Part shown: positions 45,905 to 63,707 of the stretch, piece by piece | Layout of the letters: the number at the start of each line of letters is the position of its first letter | How positions within the stretch are numbered: position 1 is the stretch's first letter | Source: a virus | Taxonomy: Duplodnaviria; Caudoviricetes | Length of the DNA: 64,000 nucleotides | Strand: one strand, 5' to 3' | IMG/VR virus record: IMGVR_UViG_3300021431_000081 | Span: 91,846 to 155,845 of that record | Translations under genes and position numbers: made by a program | The notes under the pieces: model-generated | What the model was told of the DNA's origin: nothing | Seen by the model: the letters and a program-made list of their open reading frames with translations, nothing else | Database searches by the model: none

Positions 45905-46805
45905 TCAAAAGAAAAGATATATGGAAATAAAGTATCAAAATGATATTTTACCACCAAGAGTATTGGAACGATTATTTCAAAAGATTGATTCGTTTGAGAG
46001 AAGAAGAAATAAAGATTGTTCTGAATTCAATTCAAAAGAGATACTATCTTTTCTTACATTAAATAACGATAAATCTTTAAGTGTAATAGAGAATAAGAGA
46101 TCTATTCTTTCTAATTATACAGATTGGTGTTTGACTAATGGTTTTGTGAAGTCAGGACAGAATCATTATGAAGAACTGACCATAAGTGATTTAAAGAAAT
46201 GTATTAACAAAGAAAAAATGAAGAGTTCTATTATTACAAGAGAAGATTTGTTGGAGACAATAAGTGAACTGGAAAACTTTCGTGATCAATTTATTTTGCT
46301 CTCTATTTTTGAAATAGGCGTAAAAAGGCATTTTGCTGATTTAATCAATATCAATATAGAAGATTTCAATAGGGAAAACAATACATTAGTATTGGAAAAC
46401 AGAACAGTTACGGTATCTGATAAATTATATGAACTAGCTGTGGCTGCAAATAATTCTTTGGTTTACTATGATACAAGAAACAGAGCAGTTACATTAGTTG
46501 GTGATAAGGTAGTAAAATATTCACTACGTGGCCCAAGATCAGGGAATGCAAACGACTACGGAAAAAAGATTATAGCCATTGTTCGTAGAAGTTTGGATTA
46601 TTTAGGATTAGATAATATTATACCAAGAGATCTAGCATTGAGTGGTATGATCCATTTAATTAAAGAGTACGGAAAATATTATCATCTTGATCCAAAGGAA
46701 GTTGTTATGAATAAAAAATTATATAGTAAGGTTTGTCAGCAATATGATGTTAAGACATATTCTACAGTATTTCTGCATCAGTATGAAACGGTTTTATCCT
46801 CGTAA
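45894..46805 (+). CDS. Degenerate tyrosine-recombinase-fold repressor (SPbeta YopR/MrpR-like)
   Basis: N-terminal SAM-like domain, RDQFILLSIFEIG, LSGMI; lacks the HxxR/GH catalytic motifs; overlaps the DGQHR gene. Confidence 0.7.
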   Translation: MNPDQKKRYMEIKYQNDILPPRVLERLFQKIDSFERRRNKDCSEFNSKEILSFLTLNNDKSLSVIENKRSILSNYTDWCLTNGFVKSGQNHYEELTISDLKKCINKEKMKSSIITREDLLETISELENFRDQFILLSIFEIGVKRHFADLININIEDFNRENNTLVLENRTVTVSDKLYELAVAANNSLVYYDTRNRAVTLVGDKVVKYSLRGPRSGNANDYGKKIIAIVRRSLDYLGLDNIIPRDLALSGMIHLIKEYGKYYHLDPKEVVMNKKLYSKVCQQYDVKTYSTVFLHQYETVLSS

Positions 46806-46844
46806 GGGGATAAAACTGATGTAAACAAGATAAATTAAAAAGAG

Positions 46845-46873
46845 TTGACAAAAGTTTTGCTATGTGTTACAAT
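46845..46873 (+). promoter_or_regulatory. SigA-type promoter for the tRNA/ncRNA island
   Basis: TTGACA-17 bp-TACAAT, ~20 nt before tRNA-Ser. Confidence 0.85.
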
Positions 46874-46894
46874 ACAAAATGTCAAGAGACAAAG

Positions 46895-46984
46895 GCCGAT
46901 GTACTCTAGTGGCTGAGGAGTGCTGACTTGAAATCAGCTAGGGGGCAGAGATGTCCTGCGAGGGTTCGAATCCTTCCATCGGCG
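46895..46984 (+). tRNA. tRNA-Ser(TGA)
   Basis: GCTGA-ctTGAaa-TCAGC; long variable arm; G discriminator. Confidence 0.92.
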
Positions 46985-47182
46985 TTTCCTTGTAAAGCAC
47001 TGTGTTGCAAATAAAAGTAAAGGAGGGAGTAACCTCCGAATTGTTGCGGATCAAGGAAAACCTTCTGGGATTATGGGATTGATATTATTTTCAAACGTAA
47101 AAAAATCAATACGTCATTTTCTGTTAGGGGTAGCAGTTTTTGGGCGTATTAAATAAAGAAATTAAAAGAACAGGTATATAGT

Positions 47183-47575
47183 ATGAACAATACGTGTGAA
47201 ACACAATATAAAATTACTGTTAAAAAATATATGACGCAAAAATCTTTTTCTGGATTCAATTTTATGAAAAAGTTTAATAACGATAATCCGATGCCATTAA
47301 GAACTATGATTGGTACAATTCAAAAAGAAACTAAAGGCATGGTGTATATGAAGCTTCATGGACAAGCAGCGTATACAGAAAGATGTATGAAATGTGGAAG
47401 AATACTTAAAGATCCAGTTTCACAATTTTTGGGTATTGGCCCCGAATGTATATCACAATTAGGTCTTAGTCATAATATTACGGACATAGAGATGATAAAA
47501 GAAAAATTGGTTGATATAATTTGGGAAGGATGGATAATACGAAGTTCTATTGTTTCAATAGAAGTTATTCAATAA
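47183..47575 (+). CDS. DUF6011-like Zn-finger protein
   Basis: CMKCGRILKDPVS..LGIGPEC motif. Confidence 0.8.
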   Translation: MNNTCETQYKITVKKYMTQKSFSGFNFMKKFNNDNPMPLRTMIGTIQKETKGMVYMKLHGQAAYTERCMKCGRILKDPVSQFLGIGPECISQLGLSHNITDIEMIKEKLVDIIWEGWIIRSSIVSIEVIQ

Positions 47576-47582
47576 ATAATAA

Positions 47583-47665
47583 GCGGGTATGGCGGAACGG
47601 CAGACGCCGGGGACTTAAAATCCCCTGAGATTATTCTCGTGAGGGTTCAAATCCCTCTACCCGCA
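47583..47665 (+). tRNA. tRNA-Leu(TAA)
   Basis: GGGGA-ctTAAaa-TCCCC; variable arm; T-loop TTCAAAT. Confidence 0.93.
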
Positions 47666-47824
47666 CTGGAGATGCCTATAAGCACCTCCTGAGATTTTTT
47701 GAACAATTCTGTTTAATCTACTCTCAAGGGCGAACTGTTCACCCGTCCCTTGTAAAACATAACGGGAGAACTTCCTTAAAAATTACTCCTTGGCATTACG
47801 GATTTTAAGAAGGAGAAAATCAAG

Positions 47825-48001
47825 ATGGGCGAAAAGATGAAGTTCGAAATATATGGTGAGTTAGAGTGGTTAGAGCCAACGGATTATTATGCAGGTCCGT
47901 GGAGATATCTGGAAACCGTCAGAGCAGAGGATGGCAAAATGTACGATATAGTGGTAATGAATAGGCACTATCCTTGCGAAAGAAGATATACCGTCCTCTA
48001 A
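47825..48001 (+). CDS. Small hypothetical protein (58 aa)
   Basis: AAGGAG RBS; MGEKMKFEIYGELEWLEP... Confidence 0.6.
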   Translation: MGEKMKFEIYGELEWLEPTDYYAGPWRYLETVRAEDGKMYDIVVMNRHYPCERRYTVL

Positions 48002-48070
48002 ACTATGAGATAAGTGATTGAATAAAAAATTATGCGATGATGGAATAGGTAGATTGGTAGTGAAATCAGA

Positions 48071-48250
48071 ATGATAGAAGAAAAATGCAACATCAAAACA
48101 CTTACACCACAGCAACGTGCGCTATTGAACGAAATCAGAAAAGAAACGGAAGCACCGTACAGAGATATTATAGATGGGATAAGAAAATACGGAAACGACC
48201 GTAATAAGGTTATAAACTATTTGCGGGAAATAGCGATTGTTTATGCATAA
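48071..48250 (+). CDS. 59-aa protein resembling the EF-Ts N-terminal (UBA-like) domain
   Basis: LLNEIRKETEAPYRDIIDGIRKYGNDRNKVINYLRE pattern; weak RBS. Confidence 0.5.
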   Translation: MIEEKCNIKTLTPQQRALLNEIRKETEAPYRDIIDGIRKYGNDRNKVINYLREIAIVYA

Positions 48251-48294
48251 CAATAGAGACAAGAACAACTCACTTAAATGGTTAAAAGGAACAT

Positions 48295-48422
48295 TATGTG
48301 GTGGCGGAATAGGTAGACGGAGGACAGCAGGAGAATGACTGACAGGTAGGAACAACTTGTTTAGACAGAGCTGCATGGAAAAAAATCATTCTCATGTAAG
48401 GTGCAAATCCTTACCCACATAA
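48295..48422 (+). ncRNA. tRNA-framed RNA, copy 1
   Basis: Acceptor TATGTGG/CCACATA; D region GCGGAATAGGTAGACG; T-arm GTAAG-GTGCAAATC-CTTAC; long insert in place of the anticodon arm. Confidence 0.8.
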
Positions 48423-48545
48423 TAAACCGCACGGATGGCCGTGGACACAACGATAGTTGAAACGCAGAGAAGTTTTTGGTGCGGTATATAAATGAATATG
48501 GGCCTCAAGTGGAAAATGGTATGTCCCTCATGAGTACACGCATGT

Positions 48546-48650
48546 TCTCCGGTGACGAAATAGGTAGCCGAGCCGTCCGAGTGTCGCAGACATAGGAGGG
48601 TGCATAGACGGGAGTCTTTACATGTGAAGTGCAAATCTTCACCCGGAGAA
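48546..48650 (+). ncRNA. tRNA-framed RNA, copy 2
   Basis: Acceptor TCTCCGG/CCGGAGA; ACGAAATAGGTAGCCG; T-arm GTGAA-GTGCAAATC-TTCAC. Confidence 0.8.
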
Positions 48651-48652
48651 TT

Positions 48653-48740
48653 GGCTCTATAGAATAACGGAAGTCGATTTAAGCTAGTAGTTCACTGCAA
48701 TGTCCAAGCAGAGGTTCTGGTTCAACTCCAGATGGGGCCG
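48653..48740 (+). tRNA. Atypical tRNA-Asp(GTC) with expanded D-loop
   Basis: Acceptor GGCTCTA/TGGGGCC + G; CTGC...atGTCca...GCAG; T-arm TCTGG-TTCAACT-CCAGA. Confidence 0.6.
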
Positions 48741-48884
48741 TTAATGCGAAGCACTAGGCGAAGTGAGTATGCTTATCATGACGATGATTAGTTGAAAGTT
48801 CGGTTAGGAAAAGCATCAAGACATAAGACTGGTTTGTTAGTGAACATTAAAGAGTAGTCAAAGGCCAAGGCTACCGCCAGTTGT

Positions 48885-48986
48885 TCTTCGGTGGCGGAAT
48901 AGGTAGACGCTAATGTACAAACAACGATTAAGATCTGAGATAGTACGGTCGCAGATTATGTAAGGTGCAAATCCTTATCCGGAGAA
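48885..48986 (+). ncRNA. tRNA-framed RNA, copy 3
   Basis: Acceptor TCTTCGG/CCGGAGA; GCGGAATAGGTAGACG; T-arm GTAAG-GTGCAAATC-CTTAT. Confidence 0.8.
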
Positions 48987-49137
48987 GGCGTGCGAGGTAT
49001 CAAACAGCATAGGGAGGGATGCAGATACCGCTAAACTCCTACCCAAGCGCACACGGGTCCTGATGTTCGATTTAGCCACGTAATGAACAAGCAGTGCGTT
49101 AAGAGAGTGACTGGCAGCCGGGAAAAGACCGGCTATA

Positions 49138-49209
49138 CGGAACGTAGCTCAGATGGTTGAGCGGTTCCCTATGGGGAGCAATACGCAGGTTCGAATCCTG
49201 CCGTTCCGA
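49138..49209 (+). tRNA. tRNA (Pro-like body) with aberrant 6-nt anticodon loop
   Basis: Acceptor CGGAACG/CGTTCCG + A; good D and T arms; GTTCC-ctatgg-GGAGC. Confidence 0.65.
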
Positions 49210-49343
49210 TTTCACAGCAGTTGCAAATGTTGTGGACGGTGATTCAAAGAGATAAAGTTGAGGGTTAAGTATTAATTAAGTGTGAGGGTGGTGTATTCGT
49301 AGGCCACGAATAAGACAGACTTGAATGGTATGAATTATCGTTA

Positions 49344-49416
49344 CGCACTATAGTTTAAATGGAGAAAACGCCCAAAGACTAATTGGGTAATATAGGTTCG
49401 AGTCCTATTGGTGCAA
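49344..49416 (+). tRNA. Atypical tRNA, loop AGACTAA (nominal anticodon ACT), C1.A72 mismatch
   Basis: CCCAA-agactaa-TTGGG; T-arm ATAGG-TTCGAGT-CCTAT. Confidence 0.65.
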
Positions 49417-49526
49417 CTCGATTGTCTTTAGTTTGACCTCCTTTCTTCTTTTGTTACTTGTTGACTTGTTTTTGCTTTGTTTGCACGGTCTAGCTAGGGA
49501 GATCGTTAACAATCCCTAGCATGCGT

Positions 49527-49598
49527 TGCCCATTAGTACAAAAGCTAGTACATGCGGCTTTGACCCGCAGGACGGTGGGGCAGTACCACCATGGGCAG
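49527..49598 (+). tRNA. tRNA-Gln(TTG)
   Basis: Acceptor TGCCCAT/ATGGGCA + G; TGCGG-ctTTGac-CCGCA; variant T-loop GGCAGTA. Confidence 0.85.
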
Positions 49599-49610
49599 TT
49601 CTTTCACAAA

Positions 49611-49841
49611 ACCAGACGCTCTCAGCATGGATGCATACATGTGACCCATACTATTTTTTCTGCGAAGGGTTAATGAGCGTGAACCGAATGCAGACCTCGA
49701 CACGAAACTAATAAAGACATAGCGAGTAGCACTATATAACGTTTGGTAGGGTGCTTTAAAGGATGAAGTGGCGCTTGCAGATATAATCTTATTAGTGGAC
49801 AGGGAAATCACATTCAAGTGCTGATCAGTTGTTGGTCTGGT
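49611..49841 (+). ncRNA. Candidate ~230-nt structured RNA
   Basis: Closing stem ACCAGAC/GTCTGGT with nested helices; fills the gap between two tRNAs. Confidence 0.45.
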
Positions 49842-49851
49842 CAGCAAATGA

Positions 49852-49924
49852 GCCAGTATGACGCAATTGGTAGCGTAACTGATTTGTGATCAGTCTGTTG
49901 TAGGTTCGAATCCTATTACTGGCA
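49852..49924 (+). tRNA. tRNA-Thr(TGT)
   Basis: ACTGA-ttTGTga-TCAGT (G37); canonical D and T arms. Confidence 0.9.
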
Positions 49925-50028
49925 TTTACCGTAGCGGTGAAAGTGATACTTCATGGTTATATAACAGCACATTTTGTTTATCACCTTCATTTTTAAGGAC
50001 AACTTCACTTTCAAATATTCACGGTAGA
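49925..50028 (+). ncRNA. Y-RNA-like module 1 (leader of the Ro60 gene)
   Basis: TTTACCGT-AGCGG-TGAAAGTGA-TACTTC ... TCACTTTCA-AATATTC-ACGGTAGA. Confidence 0.8.
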
Positions 50029-50044
50029 TAAGGAGACAAATACT

Positions 50045-51754
50045 ATGAGTAAGATGAGTTCTGCAGTAAAAGAAACCAGAAAGAAAGAAATCACAAAAGA
50101 ACAAGTAAACTTCATGGGTGGTATTTCCTATGGACTTACATCCTTGGAAACCATGAAAATGGTAACAGCATCCTCTATTATGGGTGAACCTCAGTATTAT
50201 CGTGATGGTGAGTTTGCTCAGAAAGGTGTAAAGGATGGTATATGTTCTCTTTTTACTTCTTTTAGTGAGTACCGGGTGATTGGTGATCACTTTGATGGAA
50301 AGAAAACTTCAGAGGTAATGGAAGAAGTTATTGATGCTGCTCTGAGTGAAAACTTTGAAGCAACTATTCGTTGGGCATTAACTCTACGGAAAGAATACCT
50401 GATGAGACTTAATCCGCAGGTCATCATGGTTCGTGCAGCTATGCATCCTGATAGAGTGAAATTCAATGAAGAACATCCAGGTTTATTCTCTGAGATCAAT
50501 GTACAGGTAATGAGCAGAGCAGATGAACCCAGTTCTCAACTTACGTATTGGTTATACAAAAACGGAAAGAAAAATGAGATTCCTTCTATCCTGAAACGTA
50601 ACTGGGCAAAGCGTCTGGAAAATGGTAAGAGATATGAACTGGCGAAATATAAGAACGCCAATGTGGGTATGATTGATACCGTCCGTATCTGTCATGCGAA
50701 TAGTGAAATCATTGATGAACTGATGCAGACTGGAACGATCAAGGTAGATGAAGATGATACTACTTGGGAAAGACTTAGATCTGCAGGAAAGACCTGGAGA
50801 GAGATCTGGGATGCAAAGGCACTACCTCATATGGCTTGTCTCAAGAATCTCAGGAATATCTTTACTGAGATTGAAGACAGAGATTTGTGTATGAAGATTC
50901 TGGATTATCTTAAGGGTGGAGTACACAGAGGAAAGCAGTTCCCTTTCAGATACTGGCAAGCGTATAAGATGATTGAAAAAGAGCATGATATTCATCATCA
51001 GTCACTCATCCTTGATGCTTTGGAAGAATGTATTGATCTGGCATGTGATAATATGCCGAAGCTTAAAGGTAAGACCATGTGTCTGTCTGATAACAGCGGA
51101 TCTGCATGGGGAGCATTCACCAGTGAGTACGGATCGGTAACTGTTGCTGAGATTGATAATCTTAGTTCTGTCATCACTGCAAGGAATTCAGATGAAGGAT
51201 ACGTTGGTAAGTTCGGTGACCTGTTAAAAGTTGTTCCTGTATCCAAACGAAACGGTGTTCTGAATCAGACCAAGGCCATTACTCACAATCATTACAATGA
51301 TGTTGGTGGTGGTACAGAAAGTGGTATCTGGAAGTTCTTTGAAAGAGCCATTGATAAGAAAGAATGGTGGGATAATATCTTCATTTATTCTGACATGCAA
51401 GCGGGTACAGGTGGGCTTTACGGAACAAGTGCAGATATGGATGCGTATAGAAGACGTGGGTTTGCTATGAGAGACAGCATTCATGTCGATGTAGCTAAAC
51501 TCATCAATGAATATAGACGAAAGGTAAATCCCAAAGTAAATGTTTTTTCTGTACAGACTGCAGGATACACCAATGTGGTTATTCCTGAATATGGATACAG
51601 AACGAACATTATGTATGGATGGACATCCAAAGAGTTGATCTATGCGGATGCCATGATCAAACTCTGGGATGAACATGATGAAATGAAACTTTTAAGAGGA
51701 CAGCGGAGAAATACATCAGTAATTGACGATGACCTCTTAAAAAGTACAACATAA
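50045..51754 (+). CDS. rsr: Ro60/TROVE-domain RNA-binding protein (Rsr-like)
   Basis: Helical TROVE region (YELAKY, ACLKNLRNI, QFPFRY..AY) plus vWA MIDAS (DNSGS, GGT, YSDMQ). Confidence 0.92.
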   Translation: MSKMSSAVKETRKKEITKEQVNFMGGISYGLTSLETMKMVTASSIMGEPQYYRDGEFAQKGVKDGICSLFTSFSEYRVIGDHFDGKKTSEVMEEVIDAALSENFEATIRWALTLRKEYLMRLNPQVIMVRAAMHPDRVKFNEEHPGLFSEINVQVMSRADEPSSQLTYWLYKNGKKNEIPSILKRNWAKRLENGKRYELAKYKNANVGMIDTVRICHANSEIIDELMQTGTIKVDEDDTTWERLRSAGKTWREIWDAKALPHMACLKNLRNIFTEIEDRDLCMKILDYLKGGVHRGKQFPFRYWQAYKMIEKEHDIHHQSLILDALEECIDLACDNMPKLKGKTMCLSDNSGSAWGAFTSEYGSVTVAEIDNLSSVITARNSDEGYVGKFGDLLKVVPVSKRNGVLNQTKAITHNHYNDVGGGTESGIWKFFERAIDKKEWWDNIFIYSDMQAGTGGLYGTSADMDAYRRRGFAMRDSIHVDVAKLINEYRRKVNPKVNVFSVQTAGYTNVVIPEYGYRTNIMYGWTSKELIYADAMIKLWDEHDEMKLLRGQRRNTSVIDDDLLKSTT

Positions 51755-51758
51755 ATAA

Positions 51759-51894
51759 GCAATAGGCGAAGCGGTCTAGACAGTTACTTCGTTTATAGAC
51801 AAAAGGTTAAGTCAATACTCTGCTAAAGTATCTATTGTTGGTTCGATCCCAACTAAACAGTTTTATGTACTGTCTAATTATTCTCGCCTATTGC
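51759..51894 (+). ncRNA. Y-RNA-like module 2 enclosing a tRNA body with GCT anticodon
   Basis: 11-bp closing stem GCAATAGGCGA/TCGCCTATTGC; AGCGG/ATTATTC loop; D, anticodon (ATACT-ctGCTaa-AGTAT) and T arms inside. Confidence 0.88.
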
Positions 51895-51903
51895 AAAGTA
51901 AAT

Positions 51904-52005
51904 AACATCTGTAGCGGTAAGCAGTGTTACTTCATTTGATGAAAATTGGACTTGAAATCCTCTCCTGTTATATACACCCAACACTCTTAATTATTCATAG
52001 ATGTT
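51904..52005 (+). ncRNA. Y-RNA-like module 3 with a TGA anticodon-type loop
   Basis: AACATCTGT/ATAGATGTT stem; AGCGG/ATTATTC; GGA-ctTGAaa-TCC. Confidence 0.82.
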
Positions 52006-52017
52006 TAAATAAAATTT

Positions 52018-52123
52018 GGCTGAAGCGGTCAGAGGAGTTACTTCGATATTAGGATTATCAATTGACTTTTAATCAATCTAAAGTGGTTCAAATCCACTAT
52101 TAACTCCTTCATTATTCTCAGCC
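52018..52123 (+). ncRNA. Y-RNA-like module 4 with a TTT (Lys) anticodon arm and T-arm
   Basis: GGCTGA/TCAGCC stem; AGCGG/ATTATTC; ATTGA-ctTTTaa-TCAAT; AGTGG-TTCAAAT-CCACT. Confidence 0.88.
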
Positions 52124-52211
52124 TTTGTTACATAAGCCTTCTTGAATTAATATTTTTGACATGTTTCATTCTCCAATCAGTTTTCCGTCTTTCTGTAAAA
52201 AAGACGGGTTT

Positions 52212-52299
52212 TGGGGATTAGCTCAATGGTCAGAGCCGAGTTCTTATAAAGCGAAGGCCCTCACAAGGTTTTATACGGGTTCGAATCCAGTATCCCCGA
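52212..52299 (+). tRNA. Atypical tRNA-Ile(TAT) with long variable arm
   Basis: Acceptor TGGGGAT/ATCCCCG + A; loop ctTATaa on a weak stem; T-loop TTCGAAT. Confidence 0.65.
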
Positions 52300-52316
52300 T
52301 TTTAATGAGGTGTTAT

Positions 52317-53213
52317 ATGAAGAAAAACGATTATACTTTTTATGATAATTATGTTATAGGGTTAACTCCAAAAGGGTATAAATTTTATTTTGACATTGAT
52401 GATTATGACAAGATAAAAGATTATTATTGGAAAAAGGATGGCTATGGAAATATTTATACGATAACAGAAGACGGCACTCGTATTTTAATGCATAAACTAC
52501 TTAAAGGGAATGGAATCTGGGTGCATATTGATGGCAATAATAGTAATAATCGAAAAGAAAATATAATAACAGCTAGACGTTATCATAATGATGGAAAAGT
52601 AATAATTAATGGATACGTTGCTATATATATGCCAGAACATCCTAGAGCGTATAAAGATAATGGTTGTGTATATGAACATATCGTTATAGCGGAAAAAATG
52701 TTACAAAGACCATTGTTGCCAGATGAATGTGTACATCATAAAGATTTTAATAGACAAAATAATAATCCTAATAATTTAATGGTTTTTTGTTCTGACAGCG
52801 ATCATATTAGCTATCATTATGGAAATGAGCCAATACTTACATCTAATGGTTCATATAAGTGTAAGAATGAATTGATAAATTATGCTTATAACAATATGCT
52901 GATAAATGATGAAATGAAAAAGGACATTACGATATTTCCCAAAACTAGATATAATATATGTCCGTCTTGTGGTGGAATAAAAAGTAAAGACGCAAAGATA
53001 TGTCTTAAATGTATTAATAATGAAAAAGGAAAACACATTCCTCCCAAAAATATATTAGAACAACTTATATTAACTAAACCATTTGTTCAAATTGGAAAAA
53101 TGTACAATGTAACAGATAACGCAGTAAGAAAATGGTGTAAAAAATATGGATTGCCGTTTAGAAAAATAGATATAAAAAAATTAAACGAAAATCAGGATAA
53201 TAAAGCTTCATAG
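52317..53213 (+). CDS. Free-standing HNH endonuclease (two HNH-like modules, Zn ribbon, C-terminal HTH)
   Basis: HIDGNNSNNRKEN and YEH..VHHKDFNRQNN..NL motifs; CPSC..CLKC; IGKMYNVTDNAVRKW; start after GAGGTG. Confidence 0.85.
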   Translation: MKKNDYTFYDNYVIGLTPKGYKFYFDIDDYDKIKDYYWKKDGYGNIYTITEDGTRILMHKLLKGNGIWVHIDGNNSNNRKENIITARRYHNDGKVIINGYVAIYMPEHPRAYKDNGCVYEHIVIAEKMLQRPLLPDECVHHKDFNRQNNNPNNLMVFCSDSDHISYHYGNEPILTSNGSYKCKNELINYAYNNMLINDEMKKDITIFPKTRYNICPSCGGIKSKDAKICLKCINNEKGKHIPPKNILEQLILTKPFVQIGKMYNVTDNAVRKWCKKYGLPFRKIDIKKLNENQDNKAS

Positions 53214-53270
53214 GTTTTATTATCCATTATGTAGAACGTCTGCAGCGTTACTACAGAGCATGCAAAGGTC

Positions 53271-53338
53271 TCCTCTTTAGTTTAGTGGTAGAACAACCAA
53301 GGGATACGGAGGCATCAGTTCGAATCTGATAAGAGGAA
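53271..53338 (+). tRNA. Pseudo-tRNA with degenerate anticodon arm
   Basis: Acceptor TCCTCTT/AAGAGGA; D-arm GTTT-agtggta-GAAC; T-arm ATCAG-TTCGAAT-CTGAT. Confidence 0.65.
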
Positions 53339-53378
53339 CTATTTATTAACAAAATAAATTACAAAGGAGAGTAAACTT

Positions 53379-53912
53379 ATGAGTGATGTAAGGCTTAAAC
53401 TTGCCCCTCCCTGGATCACATATCTGAATGAGATTCAGGCACTGTTTGATGGTGATCCTCAGATCGCATGTAACATTGATTGGAAGAAACCTTCCATTGT
53501 TCTGGCGGTTAGCAATGGTGACAAGGCTGCTGCGATAGCAAAATTACTCCCGGCTGAAAAGACATGGGGAAATATTACTATGACCATTGATGTAGATGGT
53601 CCTATGAGTAATCGAGCGTTTACTTCTAGTAAGGAATTGTATGAGACAGCATTCAGCGGTAATCCTGCATTTGCTTATTGCGTGGCACCTGCGGAAGAGG
53701 GTTATTTCTTTGTTGACTTCGTGTATGTGGTATTTAAGAACTGTGTTGTTCAGTTCTTCAATGATAACCTTAATGACGCACATGGACTGGTAAGTACACT
53801 TTATCAGTATATTGCGGATGATGTCTTTGAGGGATGTACTCCTGTAGGTGTACATTATTGCACTGATGTGGAGCGTGGTAAACTAGGTAAACCGCTTGGA
53901 GAATGGCCTTAA
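53379..53912 (+). CDS. Hypothetical protein
   Basis: AAAGGAG RBS; 177 aa. Confidence 0.8.
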   Translation: MSDVRLKLAPPWITYLNEIQALFDGDPQIACNIDWKKPSIVLAVSNGDKAAAIAKLLPAEKTWGNITMTIDVDGPMSNRAFTSSKELYETAFSGNPAFAYCVAPAEEGYFFVDFVYVVFKNCVVQFFNDNLNDAHGLVSTLYQYIADDVFEGCTPVGVHYCTDVERGKLGKPLGEWP

Positions 53913-54183
53913 TGTTAACGATCCTTAAGTGGTTTACAACATAAACAACTAAATAAAACTATCAAGTAGTGAGTATAGAGCCTTATTTATAATGCTGTGT
54001 AGCGCTAAACAGACAGTATCAGGTCAGCAGCGCATGACCGACCAAAAAAAAATACTGTAAAAGTTGTAAATAAGAAAAAGCAATGCATTTACAAGTTGAG
54101 AAAAAGTCTCGTAGGTACGTAATGCGCAAACTAATCCTGCCATTGCTCCCATAGGTGAAAGTCCTATGGCTTGATAGTGATCC

Positions 54184-54315
54184 GGGGAGATAGCTCAGGT
54201 GGTAGAGCATAAGAGAAAAACAGAACTGTTATAATTATTCTCAGTAATGAAGCGGATTAACAGTTACTTCATATAGGCAAGCTTAATGTCGATGGTTCGA
54301 TTCCATCTCTCCCCA
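54184..54315 (+). ncRNA. Circularly permuted Y-RNA-like module 5 inside a tRNA body
   Basis: Acceptor GGGGAGA/TCTCCCC + A with D and T arms; anticodon arm replaced by AACTGTTA-ta-ATTATTC-TCA-gtaa-TGA-AGCGG-at-TAACAGTT-ACTTC. Confidence 0.88.
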
Positions 54316-54398
54316 TTTTCCATTTTCAATAATACTCATTTATATTCAGGGGTTGGATAATTTAACCATTATCCAACCTTTCTTAAAAAGGAGGGAAT

Positions 54399-55415
54399 AT
54401 GAGTAAAGAAATAAATCTAATTTCCATAATCATTCCTATGCATAATTCAGAAAAAACAATAGGCCGTACATTAGCTTCACTGATAAGCAGTAAAGATTAT
54501 ATTAAAGAAATAATTATTGTGAACGACAGATGTGAGGATAACACTTTACAGCAGATTGAACCTTATAAATCATTCTTCGACACAATTAAGATCATAGATA
54601 ATACTGGTAATCCAGGACCTGGTCCTGCCAGACAATGTGGACTGGATATTGCTGAAGGAAAGTATGTTACATTTATTGATTCTGATGATTGTCTGACTCC
54701 AAGTAGTTTGAAATATGTATATGAGTATTTAAAAGAGAATCCCACTATACTTTGTACGCAGACTATATATTATGAGTTTGGCAGCTTTGAGAAAAAGGAC
54801 ATTCGCTGCGATGATGAATCCTGTGGCGGTAATTTTTACTTAAAACATTATCTGGATATACATAAGATCAGATTTCATGATGATCTGTATATGTCCGAAG
54901 ATGAATACTTCAACAAAAAGGTGTTTATGTTTGCATATACCATTGATCTTATGAAACCGAAAGTGGTTCATTTTGAGTATCCGGTTTATGAAGTACATCA
55001 TGATGATGGAAACACTTCATTCGCTTTAAGTAATTGGAAAGATTATGCATGTAAGTATCATTTGTTGATGTTTGAATATCTGGTTAATGATTTATATGGT
55101 TATCCTAAAGCACAGGATGAGTTAAAAGAAATATATATCAAAGGATTCATTTTTGCTTATTTCATGATGAGAGGAATAATGCAGGATGATAAAAAAATAA
55201 AAGAAAAAGAATTTGATGAGCAGTTTATAAGAGCCATGGATTACTTTGAGTTGAAATTTATGACAACAGGAGAAGATATGGTTGATTATTACAGGGATAA
55301 TTGGGAAGCAGTTAATGGGATACAGATTGGAGTAAACAGTTCTATTGGTTTTAAGGTGAAGTATAAAGTCACTTTAAATGATTTTGAAGATTATGTAAAT
55401 ACATTAAGGGAGTAA
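54399..55415 (+). CDS. Glycosyltransferase family 2
   Basis: ISIIIPMHN, EIIIVND, GPGPARQCG, FIDSDD and SEDEYF motifs. Confidence 0.92.
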   Translation: MSKEINLISIIIPMHNSEKTIGRTLASLISSKDYIKEIIIVNDRCEDNTLQQIEPYKSFFDTIKIIDNTGNPGPGPARQCGLDIAEGKYVTFIDSDDCLTPSSLKYVYEYLKENPTILCTQTIYYEFGSFEKKDIRCDDESCGGNFYLKHYLDIHKIRFHDDLYMSEDEYFNKKVFMFAYTIDLMKPKVVHFEYPVYEVHHDDGNTSFALSNWKDYACKYHLLMFEYLVNDLYGYPKAQDELKEIYIKGFIFAYFMMRGIMQDDKKIKEKEFDEQFIRAMDYFELKFMTTGEDMVDYYRDNWEAVNGIQIGVNSSIGFKVKYKVTLNDFEDYVNTLRE

Positions 55416-55421
55416 AGGCTT

Positions 55422-55601
55422 ATGATTTGGTTAATGTTACTTTTGGGTATAGTACTAACGTTTTTAATGATTTGTGGATTAACTTGGGTTATTTGTTGGG
55501 CGTTTGGTTTTGTATTCAGTTGGAAAATTGTTATTGGCATTTGGGCAATTTGTATTTTAATTGGACAGTTTACTGGACATGGTTCAGGAAATAATCATTG
55601 A
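55422..55601 (+). CDS. Small membrane protein (59 aa)
   Basis: Almost entirely hydrophobic ORF; below the track cutoff. Confidence 0.6.
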   Translation: MIWLMLLLGIVLTFLMICGLTWVICWAFGFVFSWKIVIGIWAICILIGQFTGHGSGNNH

Positions 55602-62606: not shown

Positions 62607-63677
62607 ATGGTAAAAGATATGGCTAAAGAAAAATCAGTAGATGTTGAAGAAGTAATAAAAGAAGAAGAAAAAAAGAAAAAATCGAATTTTTCAGTAGATG
62701 ATATCCTGAATACCAATGTATCCAGAGTTACTAAATCATTGGATTCATTGATCGTTCTCTTATATGGTATGGGTGGCACAGGTAAGACTCCAGTTGCTGC
62801 AAGCATGCCAGACCCTTTGTACTTAGCTTTTGGTAAGAGTGGATTATCTGGGTTAAACGATGTTCCTTTTATTTCTATTCGATCTTGGGCAGATTTCAAA
62901 AAATTCGTAAAGACTTTTACAGATCCTAAGAATTATGAGATTCTGCACAGTAAGTATCAAACAATTATCTTAGACGAATTGGAAGTGCTTTACTCTTACT
63001 GCGAAAAATATGTAGCAAACAGTGAGGGTGTAAACAAAATTAAGGAAGGTAATGGCGGGTTCGGCTTGTGGAAAGATTTGGGCGATGAATGGAAAGACGA
63101 AATCCTTAAAGTGATTGGCAGCGGTTTCTGTGTAGTGTTCATTCTTCATGCGATTTTAGAGGATGATGGATACTTTTTCCCTGTTGGTGATAAGAAGCGT
63201 ATGCTTCCTATTCTACTTAATCACAGTGATGTAATTGGTTATGTAAAAGGTAATGGTGTTGATCCTGATACTGGAAAGTCAATTCATTCGTCTCTTATGG
63301 TGGCAGGTACAGATGAATATTTTGCAAGAACAAGGAATGAATACTTTGATCCCGTAATTGAGGATTTTACAGCAGAAAATCTTATCCAAGCTTACTATGA
63401 TGCGATTGATCGTCAGGAGAAAGCCGAAGGTGTTAAAGCTGTATCTAAAGAAGAACGAGATGCAATGTTTAATGTTGAGAAACGAGATTTTGATGAACTT
63501 ATGAACGAAGTTCAAGAAACAGGCGCTGCCATTGTTGAAAAATATGGTTCTAAAGAAAAAGTGACTGAGGTTGTTGAGTCTGTTCTTGGTAAAGGTTCAT
63601 TAGTTTCTAATTGTACTCCTAAACAGCAAGAAGCTGTGGAAGTAATTCTTAATGAATTAAGGGGGTTACTTCAGTAA
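62607..63677 (+). CDS. AAA_24 / Sak4-like NTP-binding protein (YorG-like)
   Basis: Walker A GMGGTGKT; Walker B TIILDE; FILH motif. Confidence 0.85.
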   Translation: MVKDMAKEKSVDVEEVIKEEEKKKKSNFSVDDILNTNVSRVTKSLDSLIVLLYGMGGTGKTPVAASMPDPLYLAFGKSGLSGLNDVPFISIRSWADFKKFVKTFTDPKNYEILHSKYQTIILDELEVLYSYCEKYVANSEGVNKIKEGNGGFGLWKDLGDEWKDEILKVIGSGFCVVFILHAILEDDGYFFPVGDKKRMLPILLNHSDVIGYVKGNGVDPDTGKSIHSSLMVAGTDEYFARTRNEYFDPVIEDFTAENLIQAYYDAIDRQEKAEGVKAVSKEERDAMFNVEKRDFDELMNEVQETGAAIVEKYGSKEKVTEVVESVLGKGSLVSNCTPKQQEAVEVILNELRGLLQ

Positions 63678-63707
63678 AAACCTTGAATTATATGAGGATA
63701 AATCCTA

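What the first reader, a model, noticed from the sequence alone, without database searches (positions are those of the whole stretch)
49925..54315. Phage Ro60 with five covarying Y-RNA-like modules carrying interchangeable tRNA-derived payloads
Seen: five elements around the TROVE/vWA gene (49925, 51759, 51904, 52018, 54184) share one architecture: outer stem, AGCGG, inner stem, (U)ACUUC, payload, inner stem complement, AWUAUUC, outer stem complement. The stem sequences differ between copies but always pair, while the loop motifs are invariant, so structure is being conserved. Established: bacterial Ro60/Rsr binds Y RNAs through a terminal bulged helix, and YrlA RNAs mimic tRNA. Inference: one phage Ro60 loads a panel of RNAs through a constant handle and displays variable payloads, i.e. 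a modular RNP system. I do not know of a description of such an array.
Basis: partly seen in the sequence, partly recalled or inferred. Interest (0 to 1): 0.93.

Follow-up and report, generated by a model that had tools for sequence, protein, structure and literature searches.

The report
Phage Ro60 with five Y RNAs
A 156-kb phage encodes a Ro60-type ring protein flanked by five small RNAs that share one conserved two-helix "handle". They look like this phage lineage's version of the known bacterial Y RNAs (YrlA/YrlB), with some unusual ways of attaching a tRNA-shaped part.

Summary
Four RNAs (49924-50029, 51759-51894, 51904-52005, 52018-52123) share this layout: outer stem, AGCGG, inner stem, UACUUC, payload, inner stem, AWUAUUC, outer stem. 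A fifth (54184-54315) is a tRNA-shaped gene with the same module, in swapped order, in place of its anticodon loop.

A covariance model finds no other copy in the phage genome. In 150 loci that encode relatives of the protein, 114 carry the element. 215 of 220 hits are on the gene's strand and 87% lie within 1 kb of the gene. In five whole bacterial genomes, every hit lies just upstream of the TROVE gene. The stems covary strongly.

The protein has a Ro60 fold. Bacillus phage G (60% identical protein) carries seven such elements. One is a canonical YrlA, whose tRNA-like core gives a sub-threshold match to Rfam YrlA.

So these are Y RNAs of the known Rsr/YrlA kind, not a new system. Three things look new:
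- the divergent handle, which Rfam does not cover;
- arrays of up to seven;
- native-order tRNA cloverleaves inside the handle, plus an "un-permuted YrlA" with an open acceptor end.

Transcription and Ro60 binding remain untested. This scan has noted similar Ro60-plus-RNA arrays on other phage DNA.

The parts
50045..51754 (+). Ro60/Rsr orthologue (TROVE HEAT-repeat ring plus vWA domain with DxSxS MIDAS motif at D349/S351/S353), 569 aa
   Evidence: Pfam TROVE 23.2 bits against a cut-off of 23. PHROG 850 'RNA-binding protein', E 7e-46. phmmer hit to Thermus phage phiLo Ro60 (9L5Y/9KOP), E 8e-10. AlphaFold model pLDDT 76.5. Its 13 matches at E <= 0.001 (listed ranks 1-13) are all Ro60 structures, E 1e-13 to 4e-9. 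The MIDAS residues are invariant in alignment A1.
49924..50029 (+). E1: Y-RNA-like element. Outer stem 49924-49932 / 50021-50029; AGCGG 49933-49937; inner stem 49938-49946 / 50005-50013; UACUUC 49947-49952; AAUAUUC 50014-50020. About 52-nt non-tRNA payload. It starts right after tRNA-Thr (49852-49924) and ends 2 nt before the Shine-Dalgarno of the Ro60 gene.
   Evidence: Model R1: 58.2 bits, E 7.5e-12.
51759..51894 (+). E2: handle enclosing a complete native-order tRNA cloverleaf. Outer stem 51759-51769 / 51884-51894; AGCGG 51770-51774; inner stem 51775-51784 / 51869-51876; UACUUC 51785-51790; AUUAUUC 51877-51883. The cloverleaf spans 51789-51861 and has anticodon loop CU-GCU-AA and a short variable loop.
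   Evidence: R1 41.8 bits, E 8e-8, although E2 was not in the training set. Rfam tRNA 48.4 bits. ARAGORN calls it Ser(gct). Orthologues in L001 and L003 show compensatory stem changes.
51904..52005 (+). E3: handle with a short payload that holds an anticodon-loop-like hairpin GGA-CUUGAAA-UCC. Outer stem 51904-51912 / 51997-52005; AGCGG 51913-51917; inner stem 51918-51927 / 51980-51989 with one bulged C; UACUUC 51928-51933; AUUAUUC 51990-51996.
   Evidence: R1 57.5 bits. The hairpin loop is identical to that of the phage tRNA-Ser(UGA).
52018..52123 (+). E4: handle whose inner stem continues into the acceptor stem of a tRNA-Lys(UUU)-like cloverleaf (52036-52107). Outer stem 52018-52023 / 52118-52123; AGCGG 52024-52028; UACUUC 52039-52044; AUUAUUC 52111-52117.
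   Evidence: R1 40.0 bits, E 2e-7, although E4 was not in the training set. Rfam tRNA 40.5 bits. ARAGORN calls it Lys(ttt).
54184..54315 (+). E5: tRNA-frame RNA with a 7-bp open acceptor stem and canonical D and T arms. Its anticodon loop is replaced by the handle in swapped strand order: inner 3' strand 54224-54233; AUUAUUC 54234-54240; UCA-GUAA-UGA hairpin 54241-54250; AGCGG 54251-54255; inner 5' strand 54256-54264; UACUUC 54265-54270. It has the connectivity of YrlA, but with the acceptor end open and the Ro end closed.
   Evidence: Rfam tRNA 50.6 bits with a 68-nt insertion between UAAG and CUUA. Fold -37 kcal/mol, z -3.15. R1 finds the 5' half, E 0.001. A second, independent example is in L029, about 1798-1935.
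46845..46873 (+). Promoter-like site (TTGACA, 17 nt, TG, TACAAT) upstream of the tRNA / small-RNA / Ro60 cluster. It may be the start of a polycistronic transcript (inference only).
   Evidence: 11 of 12 matches with an extended -10. No + strand terminator-like site was called between here and the Ro60 gene.

Best explanation
The five elements are this phage's own Y RNAs, of the bacterial YrlA/YrlB class.

Inferred mechanism:
- They are transcribed with the surrounding tRNA cluster and cut out by host tRNA-processing enzymes. E1, for example, begins at the 3' end of tRNA-Thr.
- The constant module binds the phage Ro60 ring. This module is the terminal helix ending Y-G-A / U-C-R, the asymmetric internal loop [A/U]GCGG opposite AWUAUUC, the roughly 10-bp inner helix and UUACUUC.
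- YGA-AG is taken as the local form of the published GNCGAA(N)G motif. UUAC is taken as the local form of the conserved YUAY.
- The variable distal part is the effector module. By analogy with Deinococcus, Salmonella and Thermus phage phiLo, it would tether or gate Ro60 towards other factors, such as host PNPase or tRNA-binding enzymes, during infection.

What is shown: the architecture, the covariation, the exclusive genomic linkage to the Ro60 gene, and the same handle on canonical YrlA RNAs in relatives.

What is inferred: transcription, processing, Ro60 binding and the downstream partner.
For: 1. The protein is Ro60. Its 13 fold matches at E <= 0.001 are all Ro60 or Rsr. There is a sequence match to phiLo Ro60 and to TROVE.
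2. The model R1 finds only these elements in the window and in the whole 155,845-bp phage genome.
3. Of 150 loci encoding relatives (38-82% identity), 114 have at least one hit. 215 of 220 hits are on the gene's strand. 192 of 220 lie within 1 kb of the gene, against 28% of the flanking DNA.
4. In five whole bacterial genomes (about 22 Mb), all 5 hits lie within about 600 nt upstream of the TROVE gene.
5. Both stems covary.
6. The identical handle carries a canonical YrlA body (T arm, closed acceptor hairpin, D arm) in L073, Bacillus phage G and an Acetatifactor muris prophage. The phage G copy matches Rfam YrlA RF02553 on its tRNA-like core (36.2 bits, E 1e-5).
7. The literature establishes Y RNAs within 4 kb and on the same strand as Ro60 genes in more than 250 bacteria and 22 phages, with the GNCGAAN0-1G and YUAY motifs and tRNA mimicry (PMC4201824; 10.1101/312249). 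Binding of phage-encoded Y-like RNAs to a phage Ro60, and complexes with PNPase, are shown for phiLo (PMC12135203).
Against: - There is no expression or binding data.
- No window element reaches any Rfam Y RNA or YrlA model, even at E <= 10.
- The handle matches the published GNCGAA(N)G motif exactly only in E2. E1 and E3 have GUAGCGG.
- 36 of 150 related loci gave no hit at E <= 0.01, so the handle is either not universal in the protein family or too diverged for the model.
- E2 and E4 are good enough tRNAs that they could be tRNA precursors instead.
Confidence: 0.8

Rival explanations
1. E2 and E4 (and perhaps E5) are genuine tRNA genes. The leader-trailer duplex (the handle) would be a removable tag that recruits Ro60 as a chaperone or quality-control factor during maturation. 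RNase P and 3' processing would then release working tRNA-Lys(UUU) and other tRNAs.
For: E2, E4 and E5 pass the Rfam tRNA threshold (48.4, 40.5 and 50.6 against 29 bits). E2 and E4 have canonical 7-nt anticodon loops. The phage has no other tRNA-Lys(UUU) or GCU tRNA. M. smegmatis YrlA is cut by RNase P and receives CCA (PMC4201824). The L029 example of the E5 type ends in an encoded CCA.
Against: - E2 has a Ser anticodon but lacks the long variable arm that bacterial tRNA-Ser has (established tRNA knowledge), and its acceptor stem has a 1:72 wobble and a 2:71 mismatch.
- E4 has a C6:U67 mismatch and no encoded CCA.
- The anticodon differs between positional orthologues (GCU in the window, UUU in L003).
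- E1, E3 and about half of the 136 distinct family elements (74 classed as short) carry no tRNA at all yet keep the same handle.
- E5 has no anticodon loop.
Confidence: 0.1
2. The payloads that show anticodon loops or tRNA bodies are decoys or sensors aimed at host tRNA-targeting defence nucleases or toxins. Ro60 would stabilise them or couple them to degradation or repair.
For: Three window payloads display intact anticodon loops: GCU, UGA and UUU. UUU is the commonest anticodon-like loop in the family (5 of 24), and tRNA-Lys(UUU) is the classical PrrC target (established knowledge). The phage encodes an Rnl2-type RNA ligase. Salmonella rsr-yrlA lies in the rtcBA RNA-repair operon, which responds to damaged tRNAs (PMC7790460, listed). 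Comparative work places TROVE proteins in phage RNA-repair systems (PMC7824862).
Against: - Only 22 of 98 payload-bearing elements have an anticodon-loop-like hairpin, and the enrichment is modest (24 of 141 seven-nt loops).
- No RtcB or CCA-adding enzyme is encoded in this phage.
- No conserved protein-coding neighbour points to a defence context.
- There is no functional data at all.
Confidence: 0.07
3. The handle is a cis-acting element, either an autoregulatory operator of the Ro60 mRNA or a processing signal of the tRNA operon, and not the body of stable trans-acting RNAs.
For: E1 ends 2 nt before the Shine-Dalgarno of the Ro60 gene. 10 of 71 loci with an upstream element have it within 40 nt of the start codon.
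Against: - Most elements are not next to the ribosome-binding site.
- 68 hits lie downstream of the gene.
- They occur in arrays of up to 7 and carry tRNA-like domains identical in plan to YrlA, a stable RNA.
Confidence: 0.03

Closest known systems
Bacterial YrlA/YrlB Y RNAs with Rsr (Salmonella, M. smegmatis and more than 250 species; Chen et al. 2014, PMC4201824; Rfam RF02553)
   Same: - Encoded next to, and on the same strand as, a Ro60 orthologue.
- The 5' and 3' ends form a terminal helix with a conserved loop motif (GNCGAA(N)G here appears as YGA-AG-CGG).
- A conserved YUAY (here UUAC) lies at the junction to the effector module.
- One or more RNAs carry a tRNA-like domain and others are short hairpins (YrlB-like).
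- Several are present per locus.
   Different: - No window element matches RF02553, even weakly.
- The loop motifs ([A/U]GCGG and AWUAUUC) are not part of the published consensus.
- None of the window's five has the YrlA order (T arm, closed acceptor, D arm).
- The copy number is higher: 5 here, up to 7 in relatives.
Bacillus phage G gp540 (TROVE) and its Y RNAs
   Same: The protein is 60.5% identical. Seven elements with the same handle lie around the gene, five of them in tandem upstream. It sits in the same tRNA/tmRNA island context.
   Different: Phage G has a canonical-order YrlA (L284:1780-1935), which the window phage lacks. The window phage instead has the tRNA-order forms E2, E4 and E5.
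Thermus phage phiLo Ro60 with Yrl1 and Yrl2 (PMC12135203; PDB 9KOP, 9L5Y)
   Same: A phage-encoded Ro60 with Y-like RNAs encoded beside it. It is the best sequence and fold match to the window protein. Binding, and complexes with host PNPase, were shown experimentally there.
   Different: Identity is only about 20%. It has two RNAs with a CGAA-bulge and no described tRNA cloverleaf payloads or permuted form.
Deinococcus radiodurans Yrn1
   Same: Its tRNA-like features are in native order (D, anticodon-like arm, T) between the strands of the Ro-binding stem, as described in PMC4201824. E2 and E4 share this topology.
   Different: The tRNA likeness of Yrn1 is partial (6-nt 'anticodon' loop, no clear D arm). 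E2 and E4 are full cloverleaves that pass the Rfam tRNA threshold.
[quoted passage not shown]
   Same: E5 has the same connectivity as a YrlA whose acceptor hairpin has been opened: a tRNA body with a free acceptor end and a Ro-binding arm where the anticodon arm would be.
   Different: E5 is encoded directly in tRNA order as one chain, with the Ro-end closed by a GUAA tetraloop. No processing or ligation is needed.

Membership tests
Ro60 / Rsr (TROVE + vWA) proteins | Match to the TROVE domain profile | tested here: met
   Pfam PF05731 23.2 bits against a cut-off of 23, so only marginal. PHROG 850, E 7e-46. Many close homologues carry PF05731. phmmer hit to phiLo Ro60, E 8e-10.
Ro60 / Rsr (TROVE + vWA) proteins | HEAT-repeat ring closed by a vWA domain | tested here: met
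   AlphaFold model pLDDT 76.5, pTM 0.77. The Foldseek matches at E <= 0.001 are all Ro60/Rsr (phiLo, Xenopus, human, Deinococcus), with TM 0.51-0.71.
Ro60 / Rsr (TROVE + vWA) proteins | MIDAS motif DxSxS in the vWA domain | tested here: met
   D349, S351 and S353 are invariant in the 17-sequence alignment A1.
Y RNAs (Ro60-bound small RNAs) | Encoded close to, and on the same strand as, the Ro60 gene | tested here: met
   E1-E4 abut the gene and E5 lies 2.4 kb downstream, all on the + strand. Family-wide, 215 of 220 hits are on the same strand and 192 of 220 lie within 1 kb.
Y RNAs (Ro60-bound small RNAs) | Terminal helix carrying the Ro-binding motif (bacteria: GNCGAAN0-1G near the 5' end) | tested here: inconclusive
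   E2 has GGCGAAG, an exact match. E4 and E5 have UGAAG. E1 and E3 have GUAG. The family consensus is Y-G-A-[A/U]-G-C-G-G, which overlaps the published motif but is not identical to it.
Y RNAs (Ro60-bound small RNAs) | Physical association with Ro60; a discrete stable transcript | not testable with these tools
No RNA-protein prediction tool was available.
YrlA (Rfam RF02553) | Score at or above the gathering threshold (69 bits) | tested here: not met
   No RF02553 hit in window 46500-55500, even at E <= 10. The canonical relative in phage G reaches only 36.2 bits, on model positions 23-86.
YrlA (Rfam RF02553) | Effector module in the order T arm, closed acceptor stem-loop, D arm | tested here: not met
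   E2 and E4 are in native tRNA order. E5 has an open acceptor end. E1 and E3 have no tRNA body. The feature is met in relatives that carry the same handle (L073; L284; L268).
YrlA (Rfam RF02553) | Conserved YUAY at the junction between the Ro-binding stem and the tRNA-like module | tested here: met
   UUAC or AUAC precedes UUC in all five window elements. It is U-A-C in 63-64 of 67 distinct handles. The motif is described in PMC4201824 and 10.1101/312249.
tRNA (Rfam RF00005) | Cloverleaf above the gathering score of 29 bits | tested here: met
   E2 48.4, E4 40.5 and E5 50.6 bits. E1 and E3 give no hit.
tRNA (Rfam RF00005) | Seven-nt anticodon loop and a free, processable acceptor end | tested here: inconclusive
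   E2 and E4 have 7-nt loops, but their acceptor ends are buried in the handle helix. E5 has a free 7-bp acceptor stem, but 68 nt replace its anticodon loop. Processing could not be tested.

The most novel reading that the evidence does not exclude
The phage Ro60 particle is a programmable display platform. One ring protein would load a changeable set of RNAs that present tRNA anticodon loops or whole tRNA bodies. This set includes a single-chain, acceptor-open (in one relative CCA-ended, so possibly chargeable) tRNA tethered to Ro60. The RNAs would act as decoys, sensors or guides against host tRNA-targeting defences, or would steer host PNPase or tRNA enzymes. The three attachment topologies (handle at the acceptor end, handle in the anticodon position, and permuted YrlA) would reflect different partners.
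Probability: 0.12. Interest if true: 0.8.

Novelty: new variant of a known kind. Interest (0 to 1): 0.5.

Why it matters
Ro60 and Y RNAs are conserved from bacteria to humans, where Ro60 is an autoantigen, yet the partners of the bacterial and phage Y RNA effector modules are largely unknown.

This lineage is common in rumen and gut Firmicutes phages and prophages, with more than 3,000 protein relatives. It offers a natural series in which one constant handle is joined to many payloads and to three different tRNA topologies.

It also occurs in culturable systems: Bacillus phage G, and what appear to be prophages in the isolate genomes of Bacillus sp. Brlt_9 and Acetatifactor muris DSM 23669. 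That makes the question "what does the tRNA-like module recruit?" directly testable.

Finally, it shows that Rfam's YrlA model misses a large phage subfamily.

Tried and rejected
- Rfam at the gathering threshold and at E <= 10 gave only tRNA hits in the window, with no Y_RNA or YrlA hit.
- RNAalifold on the raw MAFFT alignment recovered only the outer stem, because the inner-stem strands were misaligned. I supplied the structure by hand and re-aligned with the model.
It was uninformative about co-occurrence. The whole-genome model search replaced it.
- ARAGORN with introns allowed found no further E5-type genes that carry the handle. A regular-expression scan found only L029.
- A sixth weak model hit at 63663-63706 (E 0.87) lies at the end of an ORF, lacks AGCGG and stems, and was rejected as chance.
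- Conserved protein neighbours were sought, and none was found beyond the closest relatives.
- Tight coupling of an element to the Ro60 ribosome-binding site is not general (10 of 71 loci), so autoregulation was rejected as the main role.
- RtcB and a CCA-adding enzyme are absent from the phage.
- Three reviews or papers (Sim et al. 2020, Sim and Wolin 2018, Burroughs and Aravind 2016) were not held in the library. The supplementary tables of Chen et al. 2014 were not held either. I therefore could not confirm which phage G RNA they listed.

Full report
**What is there**

The window is the last 64 kb of a complete 155,845-bp phage record. It has a portal protein, a terminase and Sak4-like genes.

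Between 46.9 and 54.3 kb lies a + strand island of tRNA genes and small RNAs. It surrounds one 569-aa gene (50045-51754). Four elements sit around that gene:
- E1, 49924-50029
- E2, 51759-51894
- E3, 51904-52005
- E4, 52018-52123

All four have the same plan: an outer stem of 6-11 bp, AGCGG, an inner stem of 9-10 bp, UACUUC, a payload, the inner-stem complement, A(A/U)UAUUC and the outer-stem complement.

The fifth element, E5 (54184-54315), is a tRNA-shaped gene. It has a perfect 7-bp acceptor stem and standard D and T arms. In place of the anticodon loop it has 68 nt that hold the same motifs in swapped order: inner 3' strand, AUUAUUC, a UCA-GUAA-UGA hairpin, AGCGG, inner 5' strand, UACUUC.

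**Is it more than chance?**

- The pattern AGCGG-N7-14-ACTTC occurs 8 times against 0.25 expected. The three extra hits lie in ORFs and have no stems.
- I built a covariance model (R1) from 31 short relatives plus E1 and E3. It recovers E2 and E4, which were not used to build it, at E about 1e-7. It finds nothing else credible in the window or in the rest of the phage genome.
- Within the window, each 5' stem strand pairs far better with its own 3' strand than with those of the other copies.
- Across 132 distinct family members aligned to the model, 82.5% of cells pair against 54.5% in shuffles. All 16 modelled pairs show double-sided changes. The covariation score is 0.70, against 0.21 for shuffles (0/500) and 0.08-0.18 for slid partners. 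That alignment was fitted to the structure. Two checks that do not depend on the fit agree: the outer stem found by RNAalifold (7 of 7 pairs with compensatory changes) and the comparison of cognate with non-cognate duplex energies on 65 distinct handles (-8.5 and -7.2 against -3.0 and -1.5 kcal/mol).

**The protein**

- Pfam TROVE is only marginal (23.2 bits against a cut-off of 23).
- PHROG 850 "RNA-binding protein" gives E 7e-46.
- phmmer finds the Ro60 of Thermus phage phiLo (E 8e-10).
- An AlphaFold model (pLDDT 76.5) has 13 PDB matches at E <= 0.001. All of them are Ro60/Rsr structures from phiLo, Xenopus, human and Deinococcus.
- The vWA MIDAS residues D349, S351 and S353 are invariant.

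It is a Ro60 orthologue.

**Link between the RNA and the protein**

- The protein family is large: more than 3,000 relatives, mostly from rumen and gut metagenomes.
- I fetched 80 IMG/VR loci and 80 loci from bacterial genomes or MAGs that encode relatives.
- R1 hits 114 of the 150 loci searched. 215 of 220 hits are on the gene's strand. 192 of 220 lie within 1 kb of the gene, although only 28% of the fetched flank lies that close.
- Copy number per locus is 1-5, and 7 in L006.
- In five whole bacterial genomes (about 22 Mb) that carry the gene, all 5 hits lie within about 600 nt upstream of it. This includes the isolate Bacillus sp. Brlt_9.
- No protein-coding neighbour is conserved.

The conserved unit is therefore the Ro60 gene plus these RNAs, usually inside a tRNA island.

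**What the elements are**

In several relatives the same handle carries a canonical YrlA body, that is T arm, closed acceptor hairpin and D arm:
- L073:5803-5935
- Bacillus phage G, L284:1780-1935
- an Acetatifactor muris prophage, L268

The phage G copy matches Rfam YrlA (RF02553) on its tRNA-like core only: 36.2 bits, E 1e-5, model positions 23-86. The handle itself is not matched.

Phage G gp540 is 60.5% identical to the window protein and has seven handle elements. The phiLo paper states that Chen et al. 2014 had already found Y-RNA-like RNAs in phage G.

The family consensus is Y-G-A | [A/U]GCGG | about 10 nt | (G)UUAC-UUC ... A-W-U-A-UUC | U-C-R. It overlaps both published YrlA hallmarks: GNCGAA(N)G near the 5' end (E2 has GGCGAAG exactly) and the conserved YUAY at the junction (here UUAC).

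I conclude that the handle is the Ro60-binding module of a Firmicutes-phage subfamily of YrlA/YrlB-type Y RNAs.

**What is unusual here**

1. No window element matches RF02553, even at E <= 10, because none has the YrlA order.
2. E2 and E4 enclose full native-order cloverleaves with 7-nt anticodon loops, CU-GCU-AA and CU-UUU-AA (Rfam tRNA 48.4 and 40.5 bits). This is the topology described loosely for Deinococcus Yrn1. It recurs in L001, L003, L029, L033 and L077.
3. E5 has YrlA connectivity, but the acceptor end is open and the Ro end is closed by a GNRA tetraloop. In effect it is an "un-permuted" YrlA. It resembles M. smegmatis YrlA after RNase P cleavage, but as a single chain. I found one more example, independent in sequence, in L029, and that one ends in CCA.
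4. About half of the 136 distinct family elements are short hairpins (74 classed as short, YrlB-like), and many payloads are unclassified.
5. E3's payload hairpin has the same loop as the phage tRNA-Ser(UGA). Anticodon-like loops occur in only 22 of 98 payload-bearing elements, a modest enrichment.

**Mechanism**

The most likely account (about 0.8) is as follows.
- The RNAs are transcribed with the tRNA cluster. A strong promoter-like site lies at 46845-46873.
- They are released by tRNA-processing enzymes. E1 starts where tRNA-Thr ends.
- They bind the phage Ro60 through the handle.
- Their payloads tether or gate the ring towards other factors, as shown for Deinococcus and Salmonella Rsr-Y RNA-PNPase and in vitro for phiLo.

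These steps are inferred.

Rival readings:
- E2 and E4 are real tRNA precursors tagged for Ro60-assisted maturation (about 0.1). The phage has no other tRNA-Lys(UUU). Against this, E2 lacks the Ser-type variable arm, anticodons differ between orthologues, and most family members carry no tRNA.
- The payloads are decoys or sensors for tRNA-targeting host defences (about 0.07). The phage has an Rnl2-type RNA ligase but no RtcB.
- The handle is a cis-regulatory operator (about 0.03). Only 10 of 71 upstream elements abut the start codon.

**Novelty**

The kind is known: Ro60 with adjacent, modular, tRNA-mimicking Y RNAs, including in phages. The following were not found in the papers I could read, nor in Rfam:
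- the specific handle;
- arrays of 5-7 RNAs on one handle;
- full native-order cloverleaf payloads;
- the un-permuted YrlA form.

Several key reviews and the supplementary tables of Chen et al. were not available to me. Earlier notes of this scan report similar Ro60-plus-handle-RNA arrays in other phages. I rate it a new variant of a known kind, of moderate interest.

Noticed in passing
window 52211-52300: A tRNA with anticodon UUA, which would read the UAA stop codon, and a long variable arm (ARAGORN 'tRNA-Stop'; Rfam tRNA 36.8 bits). Bacillus phage G also has an annotated tRNA-other(tta) in its Ro60/tRNA island. The Ro60 gene itself ends in TAA.
   Followed up: no
window 53271-53338: A tRNA-like gene (Rfam tRNA 47.2 bits) with normal acceptor, D and T arms. 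Only 14 nt stand where the 17-nt anticodon arm should be, so it is an anticodon-less tRNA mimic without the Ro handle.
   Followed up: no
window 49138-49209 and 49344-49417: Two odd tRNA calls: one with a 2-nt 'anticodon', and one Ser(ACU) of ordinary tRNA length (74 nt), too short for a long variable arm. They are more tRNA-shaped RNAs of unclear function in the same island.
   Followed up: no
window 52329-53213: An HNH_3 endonuclease ORF with a zinc-ribbon-like region, inserted between the tRNA-like genes. It looks like a homing endonuclease in the tRNA cluster. Relatives occur in only 4 of the related loci.
   Followed up: partly
L011:1881-2524; L073:7131-7531; L284:8647-8955: Other large structured RNAs share the Ro60/tRNA islands of related phages: a ROOL RNA (284 bits) in L011, and tmRNA in L073 and in Bacillus phage G.
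   Followed up: no
G000:C1:10904-11365 (outside the window): The phage encodes an Rnl2-type RNA ligase (PF09414, 90.4 bits). It has no RtcB and no CCA-adding enzyme.
   Followed up: partly
L006:9174-9332 and many loci: Related phages contain further tRNA frames with 45-140-nt insertions at the anticodon position that do not carry the Ro handle. Some may be merged tandem tRNAs. Others resemble the tRNA-frame-with-cargo RNAs noted at 48295-48986 of this window.
   Followed up: no
L243 (Bacillus sp. Brlt_9), L268 (Acetatifactor muris DSM 23669), L284 (Bacillus phage G): The Ro60-plus-handle-RNA module is present in cultured organisms: three elements upstream of the gene in Bacillus sp. Brlt_9, a canonical YrlA with a UGCGC variant of the loop in A. 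muris, and seven elements in phage G. These are tractable systems for experiments.
   Followed up: partly
window 52185-52214: The hairpin CCGUCUUU...AAAGACGG followed by GUUUUGG lies right after E4 and overlaps the start of the UUA tRNA. It may be a weak terminator or a processing hairpin. The terminator scan did not call it.
   Followed up: no
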